This document shows, one piece after another, positions 1 to 6,143 of a DNA stretch of 13,495 bases. Source of the DNA: a virus (Duplodnaviria; Heunggongvirae; Uroviricota; Caudoviricetes). The translations under genes and the position numbers were made by a program. How positions within the stretch are numbered: the stretch's first letter is position 1; each line of letters opens with the position of its first letter. A model generated the notes under the pieces. The model ran no database searches. It was not told the origin of the DNA and saw only the letters and a program-made list of their open reading frames with translations. The stretch spans positions 1 to 13,495 of the IMG/VR virus record IMGVR_UViG_3300028991_000009; one strand, 5' to 3'.

Positions 1-1988
1 CTGTCTTCTCCGCTTCCGCTGGTCAGGCGCAGACTGAAGCGCACGCCCTTCACCACCCGCGGCGTGTCCCATTTCGCCAGCGCCAGATACTGGCCGTCAG
101 CGGCGCTCACCTCCACCGTAAGGTGCTGCACTGCCGGTGGGATGACGCTGTTCAGGGTGCCTGACTGCGGCTCAAAGCTGGCCCCGTTATCCACGATGGC
201 TTCTTTTTCCGGCACATGCTGCACTGCCGTGATGGCAAAGGTGCCGTCCGTGTTTTCCCGGATGGAGACACAGCGGAACAGGCGACGACGCAGTGACGGC
301 AGGGAGAGTCCCCACACACCGTATGTCTCCACACCATCCGGCAGGGTACTGACCTGTATCCGGTCCGGCGCGGGGTGTGCAGTGATGACCACGCTCACCG
401 GCTTACCGCTGCCGTTAATCAGGTTCACCGTCGAAGTACCTGTCTCCGGCAGGCTCACCTCACGGTCCAGTGTCAGGGTGCGGCTGGCGGCATCAATGGA
501 CAGGATGCGTCCGCCGGTCATGGTCCCGGCATAGTCGTTATCACAGATTTCAATAATGTCACCGGGTGTGTGACGCAGCCCCTGTGACCCGAGCGTGAAA
601 TCCACCGTCTGCGTTTCCAGCAGTTCGGTCTTTATCACCCACAGCCCGGCACGGTGGGCCTGACCGCGACTGGTGCAGCCGAACGCATCCATCTTCAGCA
701 GGTTGCGCCCGTAGCGCAGTATGGCGTCCGGGTCTTCCACCAGTTCCGTGGAGGTCTGCCAGCCGTTCTGCGGGTCGGTGTAATTCACCTCCACCGCCGT
801 GTGACGGTCCTTCAGGGCACTGAAGCTGTAGCGGAACCCCACGCCGTTATCATCCACCACCACATCGCTGTTGGTGTACGGCCACACCACATCCGACGGG
901 CGGTCCTGAACGAACGTCAGCGTCTGGCCGTTCCATACCGGCATACAGCGCATCGCCGAGCAGAAATCACTGAGGACGTCCCACGCCTTACGCTGTTGTG
1001 ACAGGTACGCATTAAAGGTCATCCGCGGCTCTGTGCCCCCGAAACCATCCGGGACCATCTGGTCGCAGTACTGCCCGATGGCATACAGCGCCCATTTGTC
1101 CACATCCGCCGCCCCCAGGCGTTTTCCCATTCCGTAACGCGGATGAGTCAGCATGTCCCACAGGCACCAGGCCGGGTTGTTGCTGTATGCCGGTTTCAGG
1201 CTGCCGTCCCAGATGCCGCTGTAAGTGCGTTTTTCCGGGTCATAGTTTGACGGCACCTGGATGATGCGACCGCGGATATGGTAGTTCACCGTCATCTGCT
1301 GACCGCCAAACTGCTCCGCATCCACCTGCAGGCCCACAATCGCCGTGTTCGGGTAGCACTGTTTCACATCGATGATTTCGGTGTATGACGACCACAGCGT
1401 TCTGTTCTGCAGCTGGTCCGTGGTGCTGTCCGCCGTCTCCCGGACCATCCGGATGTTAAAGGGGCGGGGAGGCAGATTATCCAGAATCACCGACGCCAGA
1501 AACTGCGAGGTGGTCTTGCCGTTAATGGTGACATCCTTTTCCGTCACCCAGTTACCGTTACGCTGTAACTGAATCAGCAGCCGGACAGAAGCCGGATTAC
1601 GGTCACCCTCTGACGTGGTCTGCACCAGTGACTGCACCCCGAAGGTGACCCGCAGGCGGTCAATGTTCGCGGACGTAATGGTGCGCGTCACCGGCTTTGC
1701 CTTCGTCACTTCCACGCCCAGTGCGGTTTCAGCTCCGGAGGACTCAAAGCCTTCGGGTGGTGTCTGCTCCTGCTCCCCGGCGCGCCAGACCGCGGTCACA
1801 CCGTGTATCACGGGATTACCGTCCGTGTCCGTCAGCGGGGTTTTGTTCACCAGAATACTCTGCAGTCCCTTCACCGGACCTTCAATCGGCCCTTCACCAA
1901 TGGCGTCAATCACGCTCATCATCTGCGTGGACTTAAGATTGTCCTTTGCCTCAACCGGCGTGTGCGCCTTGCCGCCACCTTTGCCCAC
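1..1988 (-). CDS. J: Tail tip host-specificity protein J (central tail fibre), N-terminal part; the ORF runs off the window start
   Basis: Hand translation from the GTG at 1988..1986 gives VGKGGGKAHTPVEAKDNLKSTQMMSVIDAIGEGPIEGPVKGLQ, matching the N-terminus of lambda gpJ as I recall it. SD-like AAGGGGGA lies 5-6 nt upstream. The nearest in-frame upstream stop is at 2066..2064 and there is no in-frame ATG between. No competing minus-strand ORF is listed between 338 and 1988, consistent with one long frame leaving the window. Position after I fits lambda order. Confidence 0.85.
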   Translation of the reverse strand, partial: MGKGGGKAHTPVEAKDNLKSTQMMSVIDAIGEGPIEGPVKGLQSILVNKTPLTDTDGNPVIHGVTAVWRAGEQEQTPPEGFESSGAETALGVEVTKAKPVTRTITSANIDRLRVTFGVQSLVQTTSEGDRNPASVRLLIQLQRNGNWVTEKDVTINGKTTSQFLASVILDNLPPRPFNIRMVRETADSTTDQLQNRTLWSSYTEIIDVKQCYPNTAIVGLQVDAEQFGGQQMTVNYHIRGRIIQVPSNYDPEKRTYSGIWDGSLKPAYSNNPAWCLWDMLTHPRYGMGKRLGAADVDKWALYAIGQYCDQMVPDGFGGTEPRMTFNAYLSQQRKAWDVLSDFCSAMRCMPVWNGQTLTFVQDRPSDVVWPYTNSDVVVDDNGVGFRYSFSALKDRHTAVEVNYTDPQNGWQTSTELVEDPDAILRYGRNLLKMDAFGCTSRGQAHRAGLWVIKTELLETQTVDFTLGSQGLRHTPGDIIEICDNDYAGTMTGGRILSIDAASRTLTLDREVSLPETGTSTVNLINGSGKPVSVVITAHPAPDRIQVSTLPDGVETYGVWGLSLPSLRRRLFRCVSIRENTDGTFAITAVQHVPEKEAIVDNGASFEPQSGTLNSVIPPAVQHLTVEVSAADGQYLALAKWDTPRVVKGVRFSLRLTSGSGED

Positions 1989-2029
1989 GGAATCCCCCTT
2001 CACTGTCCGCTGCCGGACACTGTTGATGT

Positions 2030-2061
2030 ACAAAAACAACAGGCACCCCGGAGAGTGCCTG
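2030..2061 (-). terminator. Hairpin plus U-rich tract (intrinsic-terminator-like) about 40 nt upstream of the J start
   Basis: Plus strand caggcac(2040-2046) / 8-nt loop / gtgcctg(2055-2061). On the minus strand the stem is followed by TTGTTTTTGT (2030-2039). Confidence 0.4.
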
Positions 2062-2099
2062 CATCATGACGGAATAAAAATTCTGAATATCTTCACATT

Positions 2100-2127
2100 T
2101 TCACAAACAGCCTGTGGCGCTTATAAT
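2100..2127 (+). promoter_or_regulatory. Near-consensus sigma70-type promoter on the plus strand (antisense to the tail operon)
   Basis: -35 TTCACA (2100-2105, 5/6 match to TTGACA), 16-bp spacer, -10 TATAAT (2122-2127, 6/6). Predicted start about 2133-2136. Confidence 0.4.
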
Positions 2128-2132
2128 TTCAC

Positions 2133-2232
2133 CGCGCTAATGTTTTTTTGCCCGAGTAACAGAAACAAAAATAACTCCTTAACGTTAATCTTTGTCTGTC
2201 CCCGCAGCTCCGCAACTCTGCGGGATTTTTTT
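2133..2232 (+). ncRNA. Candidate small RNA of about 100 nt between I and J, defined by the plus-strand promoter and the plus-strand intrinsic terminator
   Basis: The promoter at 2100-2127 and terminator at 2202-2232 are correctly ordered and spaced on the same strand. The only ATG after the predicted start (2140) has no SD and belongs to a long antisense frame, so a coding function is unlikely. The I-J spacer here is 250 nt versus about 60 nt in lambda as I recall. Confidence 0.3.
2202..2232 (+). terminator. Rho-independent terminator, plus-strand orientation
   Basis: cccgcag(2202-2208) / 9-nt loop / ctgcggg(2218-2224) followed by seven T (2226-2232). On the minus strand the stem is preceded, not followed, by the A/T run, so it is oriented for plus-strand transcripts. 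Confidence 0.55.
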
Positions 2233-2238
2233 ATGCTT

Positions 2239-3565: not shown

Positions 3566-4264
3566 TTACTGCGAAAGTTTATTAATGGAAAGGAAACCGC
3601 CGAAATTAGCCACCATGCCGCGCAGCTCACACCCGCGCAGACACTTGCTGCATCTGTCCTTACGGATATCCGTGGTGGGGTTATCGAACTCATCCGCCAC
3701 CGCAGGACCGTTATACCCGCATTCATCGCCCCGGTAATCCCACATACAGGTGTTCGCCAGCATGATGCGACCAGGAAACAGCGCCCCGTCCGTCTCGGTC
3801 GGTGTCGCCAGCACAAACGAGGCCGTCATGGCCGTCAGCTCTGACATCTGCTCCACCACCCAGCGGTCGGTCAGCTCCTGCTCCGGGTCTGCCTCAGGAT
3901 TGCCTGCCACAAAGTTCACCGCATCCAGAAAACGCGCATACACCCGACGGCGGACCACCGTGGCCCCCACCAGACTCTGCAGGTCCTCCGCCATACCGGT
4001 GACAAGACCGAACAGATTGGACACCGTCAGCGACGGTCTGGCACTGCTGCCCTTCCCGTTCATCTCAAAACCGCTGCCGTCAATCGGGTATGCCTCATAC
4101 GTCCGCCCCTGCCAGGTGACCGGCTCCCCTTTTTCATTCAGCTCGTTGCAGAAAAAATACCGCTCACCGCCCTGCACCGTCAGGTCAATTTCCCAGAGCA
4201 CCACCCGCGGTGACTGTTCTGATTTCACCGACTCGTTCAGACTTTCTTCGTGGATCTCCTGCAT
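3566..4264 (-). CDS. L: Minor tail protein L
   Basis: 232 aa, the same length as lambda gpL, with near-colinear similarity (MQ.I..E.LNE....EQS..VVLWEIDLT..GGERYFFCNE.NEKGEPVTWQGR ... GNFGGFLSINKLSQ). Confidence 0.95.
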   Translation of the reverse strand: MQEIHEESLNESVKSEQSPRVVLWEIDLTVQGGERYFFCNELNEKGEPVTWQGRTYEAYPIDGSGFEMNGKGSSARPSLTVSNLFGLVTGMAEDLQSLVGATVVRRRVYARFLDAVNFVAGNPEADPEQELTDRWVVEQMSELTAMTASFVLATPTETDGALFPGRIMLANTCMWDYRGDECGYNGPAVADEFDNPTTDIRKDRCSKCLRGCELRGMVANFGGFLSINKLSQ

Positions 4265-4276
4265 AAACTTCCACTC

Positions 4277-4301
4277 ATAAAAAAGGGGCGCAATGCGCCC
4301 C
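4277..4301 (-). terminator. Rho-independent terminator closing the porin insertion, 13 nt upstream of the L start
   Basis: Minus strand GGGGCGC / ATT / GCGCCCC (4285-4301) followed by TTTTTTAT (4277-4284). The plus-strand orientation lacks a T tract. Confidence 0.7.
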
Positions 4302-4384
4302 GAACAAAAAAGTTCAATTAAAAATCGAAAGCAATGAAGGTAATAAAATGAAAATTAAATCGGCTAATTGCCGATTGCAGTGAC

Positions 4385-4438
4385 CGGTGAAAACTATACT
4401 TTCACCGCTACAGACCATCTGTGAGGGCAGATGGTCTG
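4385..4438 (-). other. Two adjacent stable hairpins in the porin 3' UTR
   Basis: Perfect 11-bp inverted repeat cagaccatctg(4411-4421) / 6-nt loop / cagatggtctg(4428-4438), and an 8-bp stem cggtgaaa(4385-4392) / 7-nt loop / tttcaccg(4400-4407). Neither is followed by a U tract on the minus strand. Confidence 0.5.
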
Positions 4439-4462
4439 TATTTGTTCACTCACCAGTTATCA

Positions 4463-5599
4463 TCAGAACTGATAAGTCATACCAACGGCAACGATATTAT
4501 CCGTTGCAACACCTGCATCCTGGGTAAACTGACTTTCATCAATCAGATTGATTTTATAATCAACATAGGTGGACATATTTTTATTGAAATAATATGTTGC
4601 ACCCACATCAATATATTTAACCAGATCCTGATTGCCATAGTTTTTACCACCGACAATGACATCCTGAGCACGAGACTGCAGGAACGCCAGAGATGGACGC
4701 AGACCGAAATCAAACTGATACTGTAATACCGCTTCAAAGTTCTGGGCTTTATCTGCCACCCCTTTGTCGCCAAAGGTCGTCATATTCTGAGTCTCAGAAT
4801 ATATTGTCGCCAGATAAATGTTGTTGGCATCATATTTAAGCCCGGTGCCCCACATCTCAGCGTGTTTACCTTTTGCAACACTGCCGGAATCAACAACTGT
4901 TTGAGTACCGTTTACTGTTTGCGTACCATTCAGGCCTTTCACCTGATTGTTGGTACGGTCCGCGTTAGTATATGCAGCCACGATACCAAAACCTTCATAT
5001 TCATAACTGGCAGAGAAACCATAACCATCGCCATTAGCTTCCTGAAGGTCATCACGTTCATTTTTGCCCTGATACTGAGCAGCAAAATTCAGGCCATCAA
5101 CAAGTCCAAAGAAATCAGTATTACGGTAAGTCGCCACACCAGAAGTACGGGCAGTCATGAAGTTATCAGTCTGGGTCCAGACATCACCACCAAACTCTGG
5201 TAATACGTCGGTATAAGCACCAACATCATACGCAATACCATAGTTACGACCATAATCAATGCTGCCAAAGTCACCGAACTTCAGACCAGCAAACGCCAGA
5301 CGGGTCTTATTACCCGCAGCACCGTCTGATTCAGTTTTATTACCAGAGAACTGATATTCCCACTGACCAAAACCGGTCAGTTGATCATTAATCTGAGTTT
5401 CACCTTTAAAGCCCAGACGCGCATATGTCTGATCACCATCATTTCCCTTATCGCTTGAGAAATAATGCAGTGCGGTTACTCGTCCATACAAATCAAGTTT
5501 ATTGCCATCTTTATTGTAAACTTCTGCAGCCTGTGCCCCGGCTGCAAAAATCACAGCCGCAGCCACGGCTGAAAGTGCCACTGTCATTTTTTTCATCAT
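4463..5599 (-). CDS. General diffusion porin of the OmpC/OmpF superfamily, closest to phage-type NmpC/Lc/OmpD porins
   Basis: 378 aa. Signal peptide [24 protein letters not shown] followed by [15 protein letters not shown]. Conserved porin blocks [96 protein letters not shown], and the C-terminal YQF beta-barrel signature. SD AAGGA lies 5 nt upstream of the ATG. The gene is markedly more AT-rich than the flanking tail genes. Confidence 0.95.
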
Positions 5600-5801
5600 T
5601 TGTTCCTTATTTTAATTGAACTATTCATGAATTGGGCTGTCATGAACGCCAGTTAAAATATTTTACTACAAATTCTGAATTCAACTCATTAAATGCAACA
5701 AAATGTAAATAAAAGAGCGATTTCGCACTTTTTGTTAAGACAACAAAAAATAATTTTGCACGAAACAATAAAGATTAATTTATAATACAATTCCTGGAAA
5801 T
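5600..5801 (-). promoter_or_regulatory. AT-rich upstream region of the porin gene with a putative promoter and an OmpR-box-like element
   Basis: A 202-bp AT-rich spacer between the M stop and the porin start. Minus-strand TTTACATTTTGTTGCATTT (5709..5691) resembles OmpR binding sites of ompC/ompF (TTTACATTTTGAAACAT-type, from memory). A candidate -10 TAAAAT lies at 5665..5660 with a weak -35. Confidence 0.4.
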
Positions 5802-6143
5802 CTATGAGATTACCTGCTCAATCGTGCAACTGAAATCACTGTACCGGGCGTTATCCGTAACACTCCACTCCCGGCACACCACCCTGACCGTCCGGTTATG
5901 TTTCGGGGGCTTCCACAAAAAAGCCCGGTAACCACCATGCCATGACAGAAACGCGGACAGTGCCTCCCGCTCAGCATCCGTTGTCACCCGAAAAACCACC
6001 TGAAAGGTCTTCAGTTGCGCATTCAGTCCTGCCGGACGACGCTGCTGATAACCGTCGCCAAACTTCACCGTCATCACCGACGGTTTCTCCGTCACCTGCA
6101 TCCCTTCCCGGGGACACCAGTGAAGGGTCTTAATCTCATCCAC
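5802..6143 (-). CDS. M: Minor tail protein M
   Basis: 113 aa. Motifs FGDGYQQRRPAGLNAQLKT and FLWKPP match lambda gpM (109 aa) as recalled. Its start overlaps the tape-measure stop by 8 nt. Confidence 0.9.
   Translation of the reverse strand: MDEIKTLHWCPREGMQVTEKPSVMTVKFGDGYQQRRPAGLNAQLKTFQVVFRVTTDAEREALSAFLSWHGGYRAFLWKPPKHNRTVRVVCREWSVTDNARYSDFSCTIEQVIS

What the first reader, a model, noticed from the sequence alone, without database searches (positions are those of the whole stretch)
4265..4462. Long structured 3' UTR after the porin gene: possible IpeX-like regulatory RNA
Between the porin stop and the terminator lie about 190 nt with two strong hairpins without U tracts (11-bp perfect stem at 4411-4438; 8-bp stem at 4385-4407), then a canonical terminator. 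In DLP12 and PA-2 the region 3' of nmpC/lc gives rise to IpeX, an RNA that represses host OmpC/OmpF. This 3' UTR is the positional analogue and could yield a processed 3'-derived sRNA.
Basis: partly seen in the sequence, partly recalled or inferred. Interest (0 to 1): 0.6.

Follow-up and report, generated by a model that had tools for sequence, protein, structure and literature searches.

The report
IpeX-like antisense RNA behind prophage porin
The stretch after a prophage-borne porin gene is a conserved, folded RNA tail whose exposed part mirrors the translation start signals of the host's main porin genes (ompC, ompF); it most likely silences them when the phage porin is made, and it is a diverged relative of the known IpeX RNA.

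Summary
A 60-nt unpaired A/U-rich stretch and a canonical terminator follow. The fold is far better than chance (z -6.6), and seven base pairs show compensatory changes across 12 alleles.

The cassette is an AT-rich moron inserted between lambda-like tail genes M and L. It occurs in 111 of 5426 complete E. coli genomes.

The unpaired stretch is an antisense copy of a porin translation-initiation region. It pairs 14 bp with the ompF Shine-Dalgarno region, through the same core as MicF. It pairs 23 bp with ompC -14..+13. In all eight 3'UTRs tested (five M-L alleles, IpeX of E. coli and E. albertii, P1-like phage JL22), ompC or ompF ranks first among 83-89 real start regions. The core, an invariant linker and the terminator are conserved well above synonymous sites.

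Direct similarity to DLP12 IpeX is undetectable. Homology is supported only through JL22.

Verdict: a new member of the IpeX kind, probably repressing host OmpC/OmpF by plain antisense pairing. Expression, processing and repression are untested.

The parts
5600..5801 (-). Promoter and 5'UTR region of the moron, about 35% GC. It holds an OmpR-box-like ATTTACATTTTG at 5699-5710.
   Evidence: GC falls to 0.35-0.40 here, against 0.55-0.62 in the tail genes. The 12 nt are identical to the start of the ompC C1 OmpR box, which was found in the K-12 ompC upstream region. The region is conserved in the other alleles.
4463..5599 (-). Porin gene of the phage NmpC/Lc type. The likely start is the second ATG at 5596.
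   Evidence: Pfam Porin_1, E 1e-143. Identity is 70-72% to Lc and ev243, 69% to the JL22 porin, 59% to OmpC and 58% to OmpF.
4265..4462 (-). The whole 3'UTR, the IpeX-like element.
   Evidence: Fold z = -6.6. The family is present in 111 of 5426 E. coli genomes, and lies between porin and tail gene L in every locus examined.
4409..4440 (-). Hairpin H1: 13-bp stem with loop CCCUCA at 4422-4427.
   Evidence: Perfect inverted repeat. Three pairs carry compensatory changes. The loop is CCCUCA or CCCUUA in all alleles, and also in H2 of IpeX and of JL22. It is complementary to the GAGGG Shine-Dalgarno of ompC and ompF, which the phage porins lack.
4385..4407 (-). Hairpin H2, 9 bp.
   Evidence: Three pairs carry compensatory changes and 100% of cells pair.
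4377..4385 (-). Invariant unpaired linker GGUCACUGC. It is a possible second seed resembling that of RybB.
   Evidence: The linker columns are 8/8 identical in every allele pair, while porin third codon positions are only 54-74% identical. It is unpaired in the MFE structure. CACUGC matches the start of the CRCUGCUUUU seed shared by RybB, MicV and VrrA. Complements of 8 bp or more occur in ompF, ompC, ompA and nmpC, that is 4 of 4 OMP genes, against 4 of 78 other genes.
4358..4376 (-). Hairpin H3, 7 bp here. It is longer, with an inner stem, in other alleles.
   Evidence: One pair carries a compensatory change. The apical segment is inverted between alleles L003 and L052.
4327..4360 (-). Unpaired antisense core. 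Positions 4334-4347 (UUUAUUACCUUCAU) pair with ompF -16..-3. Positions 4335-4360 pair with ompC -14..+13.
   Evidence: The weak MicF hit (Rfam RF00033, 26.6 bits, E 0.087) spans 4276-4362. The core is 79-94% identical between alleles and unpaired in the MFE structure.
4311..4323 (-). Distal unpaired stretch UUUUAAUUGAACU, complementary to the porin's own 5'UTR at 5610-5622.
   Evidence: (repeat I1). The helix is kept in other alleles, with one A-U to U-A exchange and with G.U pairs. A helix of this length is not significant on its own: 5-9% of shuffles reach it.
4279..4301 (-). Rho-independent terminator: a 7-bp all-G/C stem plus U6. It is a likely Hfq-binding 3' end and the end of the moron.
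   Evidence: The stem is invariant in the 12 alleles.
3566..4264 (-). Tail gene L, the downstream flank.
   Evidence: Pfam Phage_tail_L, E 6e-92.
5802..6143 (-). Tail gene M, the upstream flank.
   Evidence: Pfam Phage_min_tail, E 2e-33.

Best explanation
The 198 nt after the porin gene form the regulatory 3' end of a self-contained moron. The moron has its own OmpR-type promoter, the porin gene, this 3'UTR and a terminator. It sits between tail genes M and L of a lambda-like prophage.

In a lysogen the porin mRNA ends at the terminator (about 4279). Its 3' part has three hairpins, then about 60 unpaired A/U-rich nucleotides, then a G/C terminator hairpin with a U-tail. That is a typical Hfq-binding layout.

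The unpaired part is an antisense copy of a porin translation-initiation region. It base-pairs with the Shine-Dalgarno and start-codon regions of the host ompC and ompF mRNAs. This would block ribosome binding and probably trigger mRNA decay. Host porins would go down while the phage porin, whose own ribosome-binding site differs (AAGGA rather than GAGGG), goes up.

The RNA could act as part of the full mRNA, or as a fragment of about 85-190 nt released by RNase E.

The likely payoff is a changed cell surface: exclusion of phages and colicins that use OmpC or OmpF, with permeability retained.

Shown here: the structure, its covariation, conservation above neutral, complementarity and its specificity, and the relationship to IpeX through intermediates.

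Inferred: transcription from the moron promoter, processing, Hfq dependence, repression, and the benefit to the lysogen.
For: 1. Context. The cassette is a moron: Porin_1 lies between Phage_min_tail and Phage_tail_L. GC is 35-46% against 55-62% in the flanks. The arrangement is the same in every related locus examined.

2. Structure. The fold has z = -6.6. 99.8% of cells pair, and 7 pairs carry compensatory changes.

3. Selection. Between alleles whose porin third codon positions are only 54-74% identical, the antisense core is 79-94% identical. The linker is 100% identical and the terminator 88-100%. The distal stretch (43-80%) looks close to neutral.

4. Complementarity.
- With ompF: 14 contiguous bp at -16..-3. 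Cofolding extends this to 20 bp over -16..+8, with ddG -16.3. MicF on ompF gives -19.2 over -16..+9 by the same method.
- With ompC: 23 bp over -14..+13, duplex energy -21.5 kcal/mol. No shuffle of 120 matches it (z -4.5). The L004/L005-type alleles reach -27.3 (z -6.1).

5. Specificity. Among 83-89 real E. coli start regions, ompC ranks first for the window allele, the L003 type, the L004 type, IpeX and E. albertii IpeX. ompF ranks first for the L002 type and for JL22. The MicF control ranks ompF first.

6. Origin. The reverse complement of the 3'UTR aligns with porin 5' regions above all 300 shuffles for L002-ompF, L005-ompC, IpeX-ompC, JL22-ompF and window-own.

7. Targets. The target sites are essentially invariant in E. 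coli. The ompC start region is at least 99% identical in 5367 of the 5371 genomes with a match. The ompF region is at least 99% identical in 5082 of 5421.

8. Kinship. [quoted passage not shown]
Against: - There are no expression, processing or Hfq-binding data for this locus.
- The window allele's fit to ompF is only modestly better than chance: 2 of 120 shuffles match it, and it ranks 7th of 89 by duplex energy alone.
- Cofolding that includes intramolecular structure is noisy. It gives ompA -13.5 and rmf -11.8, close to ompC at -12.4.
- The complementarity could be a decaying relic of an inverted duplication of a porin 5' end.
- The element also matches its own mRNA's 5'UTR. Self-regulation therefore cannot be separated from host targeting.
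- Direct similarity of this allele to IpeX is absent.
- A review states that IpeX's action on ompC does not rest on complementarity alone.
Confidence: 0.6

Rival explanations
1. The 3'UTR is only a structural 3' end. On this view the hairpins protect the porin mRNA from 3' exonucleases. The terminator insulates the tail genes from the moron promoter. The complementarity to porin start regions is a functionless relic of an old inverted duplication.
For: Strong hairpins and a strong terminator are present. Morons typically carry their own terminator (general knowledge of phage morons). The antisense similarity looks like a duplicated porin 5' end, including a residual SD-ATG on the + strand.
Against: The unpaired core and the linker are conserved well above synonymous sites, while the neighbouring distal stretch is not. 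Three diverged lineages (IpeX, JL22, the M-L family) all keep ompC or ompF as the best-matching start region. The window and L002 alleles do so through a shifted pairing register. A relic would not keep this.
Confidence: 0.2
2. The 3'UTR acts mainly on its own mRNA. The stretch at 4311-4323 would pair with the 5'UTR at 5610-5622, just upstream of the ribosome-binding site. That would set the phage porin's own translation or stability, as a feedback loop or by closing the mRNA into a circle.
For: A 13-bp Watson-Crick helix exists in the window allele. A helix at the same place is kept in the L005 type, with one A-U to U-A exchange and two G.U pairs. It is kept in the L002 type by a shifted extension, and partly in the L003 type with an A-U to G-C exchange. 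The own start region ranks second or third among 89.
Against: Helices of 13 bp arise in 5-9% of dinucleotide shuffles of these U/A-rich sequences. This part of the 3'UTR is the least conserved. IpeX and JL22 have no such match; their longest helix is 8 bp. This idea is compatible with the main explanation and does not replace it.
Confidence: 0.1
3. The element is an independent micF-like gene. It would have its own promoter inside the 3'UTR and make an RNA of about 85 nt, running from about 4362 to 4279.
For: Rfam MicF aligns end to end over 4276-4362. The core UUUAUUACCnUCAU is shared.
Against: The score is 26.6 bits against a gathering score of 79. No sigma-70-like promoter was found on the minus strand inside the 3'UTR. 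The location and neighbours differ from micF, which lies upstream of ompC and diverges from it. The shared core is explained by the shared target.
Confidence: 0.06
4. The functional strand is the + strand. Its transcript would look like a porin leader, with SD GAAGG, ATG and a stop after 11 codons. It would act as a decoy for MicF, MicC or RybB, or would encode a micro-peptide.
For: The + strand at 4308-4375 reads like a porin start region. H1 followed by TTTGTT looks like a terminator on the + strand.
Against: No promoter-like site on the + strand lies upstream of it; the nearest are at 4570 and 4777, downstream. The G.U pairs in the hairpins (for example 33/58 and 39/52) fit the minus-strand RNA and would be A.C mismatches on the other strand. 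The terminator works only on the minus strand.
Confidence: 0.03

Closest known systems
IpeX (3'UTR of nmpC in prophage DLP12 and of lc in phage PA-2)
   Same: - It lies between the stop codon of a phage NmpC/Lc-type porin gene and its Rho-independent terminator.
- It has several hairpins, then an unpaired A/U-rich stretch, then a GGGGCG terminator.
- One hairpin has the loop CCCUCA.
- The unpaired stretch is antisense to the ompC/ompF start regions. IpeX pairs 15 contiguous bp with ompC -21..-7 and 10 bp with the ompF Shine-Dalgarno.
- The porins are 70-72% identical.
- It is linked to the M-L family through JL22.
   Different: - There is no direct sequence similarity to this allele: z 0.1, and 13.6 bits with the internal-only model.
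- The window and L002 alleles pair with ompC in a different register, -14..+13 rather than about -36..-5.
- They have a longer anti-ompF core, 14 bp against 10.
- They carry an extra hairpin H3 and the invariant linker GGUCACUGC.
- They lack IpeX's first hairpin.
- The 3'UTR is longer, about 184 nt from stop to U-tract.
- The cassette sits in the tail operon between M and L, not between Q and the lysis genes.
MicF (Rfam RF00033), the chromosomal antisense RNA of ompF
   Same: The anti-ompF core is shared: UUUAUUACCUUCAU here, UUUAUUACCGUCAU in MicF. The predicted footprint on ompF is the same, -16..+8 against -16..+9. The seed lies 5' of a terminator hairpin. JL22 shares 12 of 12 nt, UUAUUUAUUACC, with MicF.
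   Different: The element scores far below the family threshold, 26.6 against 79 bits. It is embedded in an mRNA 3'UTR rather than being a separate gene upstream of ompC. It also matches ompC. The resemblance probably reflects the shared target.
RybB and the sigmaE-dependent sRNA seed CRCUGCUUUU
   Same: The invariant unpaired linker contains CACUGC. It is complementary to the GCAGUGGC motif present in ompC (-49), ompF (-43) and ompA (+25).
   Different: Only 6-7 nt are shared. The rest of RybB is unrelated. The motif lies between two hairpins, not at a 5' end. This is an idea, not a finding.
3'UTR-derived Hfq-dependent sRNAs cut from mRNAs (for example CpxQ, SroC, MalH)
   Same: The candidate regulator shares the terminator of its parent mRNA. 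It has no promoter of its own. It has a conserved unpaired seed upstream of the terminator.
   Different: Those are chromosomal and mostly target unrelated genes. Here the parent gene and the targets are paralogues, so the cassette would swap one porin for another. Processing is not shown.
Phage morons (a promoter-gene-terminator unit inserted in a late operon)
   Same: The cassette is AT-rich, with its own promoter region and terminator, between two adjacent tail genes.
   Different: Classic morons are described as protein-coding cargo. Here the non-coding 3' end appears to carry a second function.

Membership tests
IpeX-like phage porin 3'UTR RNA | Lies between the stop codon of a phage-borne NmpC/Lc-type porin gene and its Rho-independent terminator, on the same strand. 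| tested here: met
   The porin is 70-72% identical to Lc and ev243. The terminator is at 4285-4301.
IpeX-like phage porin 3'UTR RNA | Direct sequence or structure similarity to DLP12/PA-2 IpeX. | tested here: not met
   BLAST matches only the coding part of PA-2 and the other phage records returned. The internal-only model R2 gives 13.6 bits, E about 2. Local alignment gives z 0.1. The 43.9 bits from model R1 come largely from the shared CDS end and the terminator.
IpeX-like phage porin 3'UTR RNA | Homology through intermediates. | tested here: met
   R2 hits the JL22 3'UTR at 34.5 bits, E about 1e-4. JL22 versus the L005 type gives z 4.5, 0 of 500 shuffles. JL22 versus IpeX gives z 17.7. L005 versus E. 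albertii IpeX gives z 4.1.
IpeX-like phage porin 3'UTR RNA | Represses OmpC and OmpF after transcription. | not testable with these tools
   Only predicted pairing is available: ompC -21.5 kcal/mol (0 of 120 shuffles) and ompF 14 bp.
IpeX-like phage porin 3'UTR RNA | Made as part of the porin transcript and processed. | not testable with these tools
   No internal promoter was found, which is consistent but not proof.
MicF (RF00033) | Reaches the Rfam gathering score. | tested here: not met
   26.6 bits against 79, E 0.087. There was no hit at the gathering threshold.
MicF (RF00033) | Separate gene upstream of ompC, transcribed divergently from it. | tested here: not met
   The element lies in a prophage porin 3'UTR. 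The K-12 micF position is shown.
Hfq-dependent 3'UTR-derived sRNA | Rho-independent terminator with a U-tail, preceded by a conserved unpaired seed. | tested here: met
Hfq-dependent 3'UTR-derived sRNA | Stable processed species that binds Hfq. | not testable with these tools
   This needs a Northern blot, RIL-seq or CLASH.
Phage moron | Extra gene with its own promoter and terminator between conserved neighbours, with deviant base composition. | tested here: met
   It lies between M and L. GC is 0.35-0.46 against 0.55-0.62. An OmpR-box-like element lies upstream. Promoter activity is not shown.

The most novel reading that the evidence does not exclude
The 3'UTR may be a composite 'porin-swap' RNA that carries several independent anti-OMP modules. 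These would be:
- a MicF-like anti-SD/AUG core;
- a RybB-like seed, the invariant linker GGUCACUGC, aimed at the GCAGUGGC motif of ompC, ompF and ompA;
- an anti-SD hairpin loop, CCCUCA.

On this reading it arose by inverted duplication of a porin 5' end. The phage porin escapes because its ribosome-binding site differs, and perhaps because its 5'UTR pairs in cis with the distal 3'UTR. A prophage would then have copied the targeting logic of several host envelope sRNAs into one mRNA tail.
Probability: 0.2. Interest if true: 0.7.

Novelty: new member of a known kind. Interest (0 to 1): 0.5.

Why it matters
- It widens IpeX from a single sequence (DLP12/PA-2) into a diverse family. Members sit at three or more phage locations: Q-S of lambdoids, M-L of lambdoid tails, and a P1-like phage. 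The M-L form alone is present in about 2% of complete E. coli genomes, many of them STEC.
- It offers a simple, testable mechanism for a regulator whose action on ompC has been described as not explained by complementarity alone. Every lineage carries an antisense copy of the ompC/ompF start region, and IpeX itself has 15 contiguous bp against the ompC Shine-Dalgarno region.
- If this is right, lysogens carrying this moron exchange their major porins. That bears on phage and colicin susceptibility, antibiotic permeability and surface antigenicity.
- It is also a clear example of how an antisense regulator can be born, by inverted duplication of a target's 5' end.

Tried and rejected
- **Rfam at gathering thresholds:** nothing in the whole window. 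A control on DLP12 ipeX also gave nothing, so Rfam has no IpeX model and this negative says nothing.
- **MicF membership:** rejected, at 26.6 against 79 bits.
- **BLAST of porin plus 3'UTR against phage records:** only the coding part matches. A forced MAFFT alignment with ipeX was uninformative.
- **Full-length covariance model R1:** it gave 43.9 bits on IpeX. I discounted this because the model included the end of the homologous CDS and the terminator. The internal-only model R2 dropped IpeX to noise.
- **Internal sigma-70 promoter in the 3'UTR:** none found.
- **RNAduplex on full-length sequences:** it produced unrealistic long-loop duplexes. I replaced it with windowed duplexes, shuffles and a background of real start regions.
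- **First shuffle script:** it timed out.
- **Cofolding as a specificity test:** too noisy to separate ompC from ompA or rmf.
- **5'UTR-3'UTR helix:** not significant by length alone.
- **Search for relatives outside Escherichia,** so as to test co-variation of seed and host target. The pattern scan of one genome per species found only E. albertii, E. coli, one MAG with the JL22 type and three chance hits. The test was therefore not possible. The viral contigs held only the same five or six alleles.
- **Original IpeX paper (J Bacteriol 2006):** it could not be read. What I say about IpeX rests on reviews and on my own sequence analysis.
- **Dispersed repeat element:** excluded, at 1-2 places per genome and always in the same context.

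Full report
**What is there**

All genes in this part of the window run on the minus strand. The order is tape measure (6136-9411), tail protein M (5802-6143, Pfam Phage_min_tail), a 378-aa porin (4463-5599, Porin_1, E 1e-143), tail protein L (3566-4264, Phage_tail_L), then K and I. In phage lambda M and L are adjacent, so the porin is an insertion. Its GC content is 35-46% against 55-62% in the tail genes. About 100 nt upstream of the start lies ATTTACATTTTG, identical to the start of the ompC C1 OmpR box. The cassette ends with a strong terminator just before L. This is the anatomy of a phage moron.

**The observation**

The gap 4265-4462 holds the following features.
- H1: 13 perfect bp, arms 4428-4440 and 4409-4421, loop CCCUCA.
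- H2: 4385-4407, 9 bp.
- H3: 4358-4376, 7 bp.
- About 60 unpaired A/U-rich nucleotides.
- The terminator GGGGCGC-AUU-GCGCCCC plus U6, at 4279-4301.

The RNA folds at -68.6 kcal/mol, against -42.5 +/- 4.0 for shuffles (z -6.6).

**Relatives and selection**

The 3'UTR occurs in 111 of 5426 complete E. coli genomes at 73-99% identity. There are one or two copies per genome. In every locus examined the order is tape measure - M - porin - 3'UTR - L - K - I - J. IMG/VR contigs hold the same alleles.

Twelve distinct sequences were aligned. Across H1-H3 and the terminator, 99.8% of cells form standard pairs. Seven pairs changed on both sides, and only 6 of 500 shuffles reach that count. Slid controls give 36-45% pairing.

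I then compared conservation with the porin's third codon positions, which are 54-74% identical between alleles.
- The unpaired core is 79-94% identical.
- The 8-nt linker between H2 and H3 is 100% identical.
- The terminator is 88-100% identical.
- The distal unpaired part is 43-80% identical, close to neutral.

The nearest complete genome is 93.6% identical over 2.7 kb, but 98.4% over the 321-nt query centred on the 3'UTR. So both the structure and specific unpaired stretches are under purifying selection.

**What the unpaired stretch is**

An Rfam scan at permissive thresholds gave one suggestive hit. MicF aligned end to end at 4276-4362, at 26.6 bits with E 0.087, far below the gathering score of 79. 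The shared part is UUUAUUACCnUCAU, the segment of MicF that covers the ompF Shine-Dalgarno.

Direct comparison with K-12 sequences gave three results.
- With ompF: UUUAUUACCUUCAU (4334-4347) pairs 14 contiguous bp with ompF -16..-3.
- With ompC: AUUUAAUUUUCAUUUUAUUACCUUCA (4335-4360) pairs 23 bp, with one bulge and one mismatch, over ompC -14..+13. The duplex energy is -21.5 kcal/mol. MicF on ompF scores -22.2 by the same method.
- Repeat search: 4308-4346 is a 39-nt, 72% inverted repeat of the porin's own start region.

Read on the + strand, the region is a recognisable porin leader: GAAGGTAATAAAATGAAAATTAAA. The ompC leader reads GAGGGTTAATAACATGAAAGTTAAA. The reverse-complemented 3'UTRs align to porin 5' regions better than all 300 shuffles for L002-ompF, L005-ompC, IpeX-ompC, JL22-ompF and window-own. 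The element therefore looks like an inverted copy of a porin 5' end, now transcribed as antisense.

**Is the complementarity more than chance?**

- Dinucleotide shuffles of the unpaired stretch: for ompC, 0 of 120 match (z -4.5). The L004-type allele scores -27.3 (z -6.1). For ompF, 2 of 120 and 1 of 120 match.
- Against 89 real start regions (-40..+30) from two 50-kb pieces of MG1655 plus DLP12: ompC ranks first for the window allele, the L004 type and IpeX. ompF ranks first for the L002 type. The MicF control ranks ompF first.
- Against 83 start regions: JL22 ranks ompF first and ompC second. The L003 type ranks ompC first and ompF second. E. albertii IpeX ranks ompC first.
- The alleles differ in register. 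The window and L002 types cover the ompC SD plus AUG. The L003-L006 types and IpeX cover ompC -36..-5. The match is kept while the sequence moves.
- The targets are nearly invariant in E. coli. The ompC region is at least 99% identical in 5367 of the 5371 genomes with a match, and the ompF region in 5082 of 5421.
- Weaker points: cofolding with intramolecular structure gives ompF -16.3 (20 bp, -16..+8; MicF-ompF -19.2 over -16..+9). But ompC gives only -12.4, with ompA -13.5 and rmf -11.8 close by.

**Relation to IpeX**

According to reviews, IpeX is the 167-nt RNA of the nmpC/lc 3'UTR. It is made as part of the porin transcript and represses OmpC and OmpF. Its ompC mechanism is described as not resting on complementarity alone.

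The window porin is 70-72% identical to Lc and ev243. The DLP12 3'UTR has the same plan: three hairpins, an unpaired A/U-rich stretch, then a GGGGCG terminator.

Direct similarity, however, fails.
- BLAST finds none.
- A covariance model of the whole family scored IpeX at 43.9 bits. A model without the CDS end and the terminator scored it at 13.6 bits, which is noise.
- Local alignment of window against IpeX gives z 0.1.

The bridge is the porin 3'UTR of the P1-like phage JL22. It matches IpeX unmistakably (z 17.7). It also matches the M-L family: 34.5 bits, E about 1e-4, and z 4.5 against the L005 type. That match includes a distal segment that is not complementary to ompC or ompF, so convergence on the same target cannot explain it.

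In the model's alignment, window H1 (loop CCCUCA) corresponds to H2 of JL22 and IpeX, which has the same loop. Window H2 corresponds to their H3. Window H3 plus the linker is an insertion.

I therefore file the element as a diverged member of the IpeX kind. The homology is transitive only.

**Mechanism proposed**

In the lysogen the moron promoter drives a porin mRNA that stops at 4279. Its 3' end exposes an antisense copy of the host porin start regions next to a terminator and U-tail of the type that binds Hfq. It may act in the full mRNA or after RNase E cleavage in the A/U-rich stretch. Pairing over the SD and AUG of ompC and ompF blocks initiation.

The phage porin's own ribosome-binding site (AAGGA) lacks the GAGGG shared by ompC and ompF. 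The core pairs with it over only 4 bp, so the phage porin should escape.

The result is replacement of host porins by the phage porin. By analogy with PA-2/Lc (my own knowledge), the benefit would be exclusion of phages and colicins that dock on OmpC or OmpF. During lytic growth, antiterminated late transcription would read through the terminator (general knowledge of lambda).

Structure, selection, complementarity and kinship are shown here. Transcription, processing, Hfq dependence, repression and benefit are inferred.

**Further leads**

- The invariant linker GGUCACUGC (4377-4385) contains CACUGC. This is the start of the CRCUGCUUUU seed shared by RybB, MicV and VrrA. Complements of 8 bp or more are present in ompF (two sites), ompC, ompA and nmpC, that is 4 of 4 OMP genes against 4 of 78 others. 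It may be a second seed.
- The loop CCCUCA/CCCUUA is conserved across all three lineages despite unrelated stems. It is complementary to the GAGGG Shine-Dalgarno of ompC and ompF.
- The distal stretch 4311-4323 pairs 13 bp with the porin's own 5'UTR at 5610-5622. The helix persists in other alleles with one exchange on both sides. Such helices arise in 5-9% of shuffles.

**Distribution**

A pattern scan of one genome per species found the superfamily only in Escherichia: E. albertii, E. coli, and one MAG contig with the JL22 type. Co-variation of seed and target across genera could therefore not be tested.

**Verdict**

This is a real, selected, structured RNA element. It is most likely an IpeX-like antisense repressor of host OmpC and OmpF, with confidence 0.6. 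It is a new member of a known kind. It carries a mechanistic hint that also applies to IpeX itself. Interest is moderate, 0.5.

Noticed in passing
L001:3409-3423 (DLP12 ipeX, minus strand): IpeX itself has 15 contiguous bp (AACCUUCUGUUAUAU) against ompC -21..-7. With UUACCCUUUAUU against AAAUAAAGG, the duplex reaches -24.9 kcal/mol. ompC is its top hit among 89 start regions. A review describes its action on ompC as not resting on complementarity alone.
   Followed up: partly
window 1988-2238 (minus strand): About 250 non-coding nt separate tail genes I (stop at 2239) and J (GTG at about 1987). My recollection is that these two genes are adjacent in lambda; this was not checked here. The gap holds a hairpin cccgcagagttgcggagctgcgggg and a terminator-like ggcactctccggggtgcc followed by tgttgttttt. 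Gaps of 340-490 nt are annotated at the same place in related prophages. This may be another small insert or RNA.
   Followed up: no
window 5699-5710 (minus strand): ATTTACATTTTG lies upstream of the porin and is identical to the start of the ompC C1 OmpR box. The region is conserved in other alleles. This suggests OmpR control of the moron.
   Followed up: partly
window 4311-4323 and 5610-5622: The distal 3'UTR and the porin's own 5'UTR can form a 13-bp Watson-Crick helix. It is kept in other alleles, with an A-U to U-A exchange, G.U pairs or a shifted extension. It is not significant by length alone, since 5-9% of shuffles reach it.
   Followed up: partly
window 4377-4385: The linker GGUCACUGC is invariant in all 12 alleles. 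It resembles the RybB/MicV/VrrA seed. Complements occur in ompC, ompF, ompA and nmpC.
   Followed up: partly
L003:2498-2697 versus L052:270-469: The apical segment of hairpin H3 is inverted between two otherwise near-identical alleles: ATATGCATGGCAATT against AATTGCCATGCATAT. This is a flip of the hairpin tip.
   Followed up: no
L096:930-2225 (phage JL22, Punavirus): A P1-like phage carries an NmpC-type porin with an IpeX-like 3'UTR. Its unpaired part shares 12 of 12 nt (UUAUUUAUUACC) with MicF and pairs 22 bp with ompF -15..+10. The cassette has therefore moved between unrelated phage types.
   Followed up: partly
window 4409-4440 (+ strand): Read on the + strand, H1 is followed by TTTGTT and scores as terminator-like. 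It could stop antisense transcription entering from the L side.
   Followed up: no
window 4422-4427; IpeX and JL22 hairpin H2: The hairpin loop CCCUCA/CCCUUA is conserved in all three lineages although the stems are unrelated. It is complementary to the GAGGG Shine-Dalgarno of ompC and ompF. The phage porins' own start regions lack that motif.
   Followed up: partly
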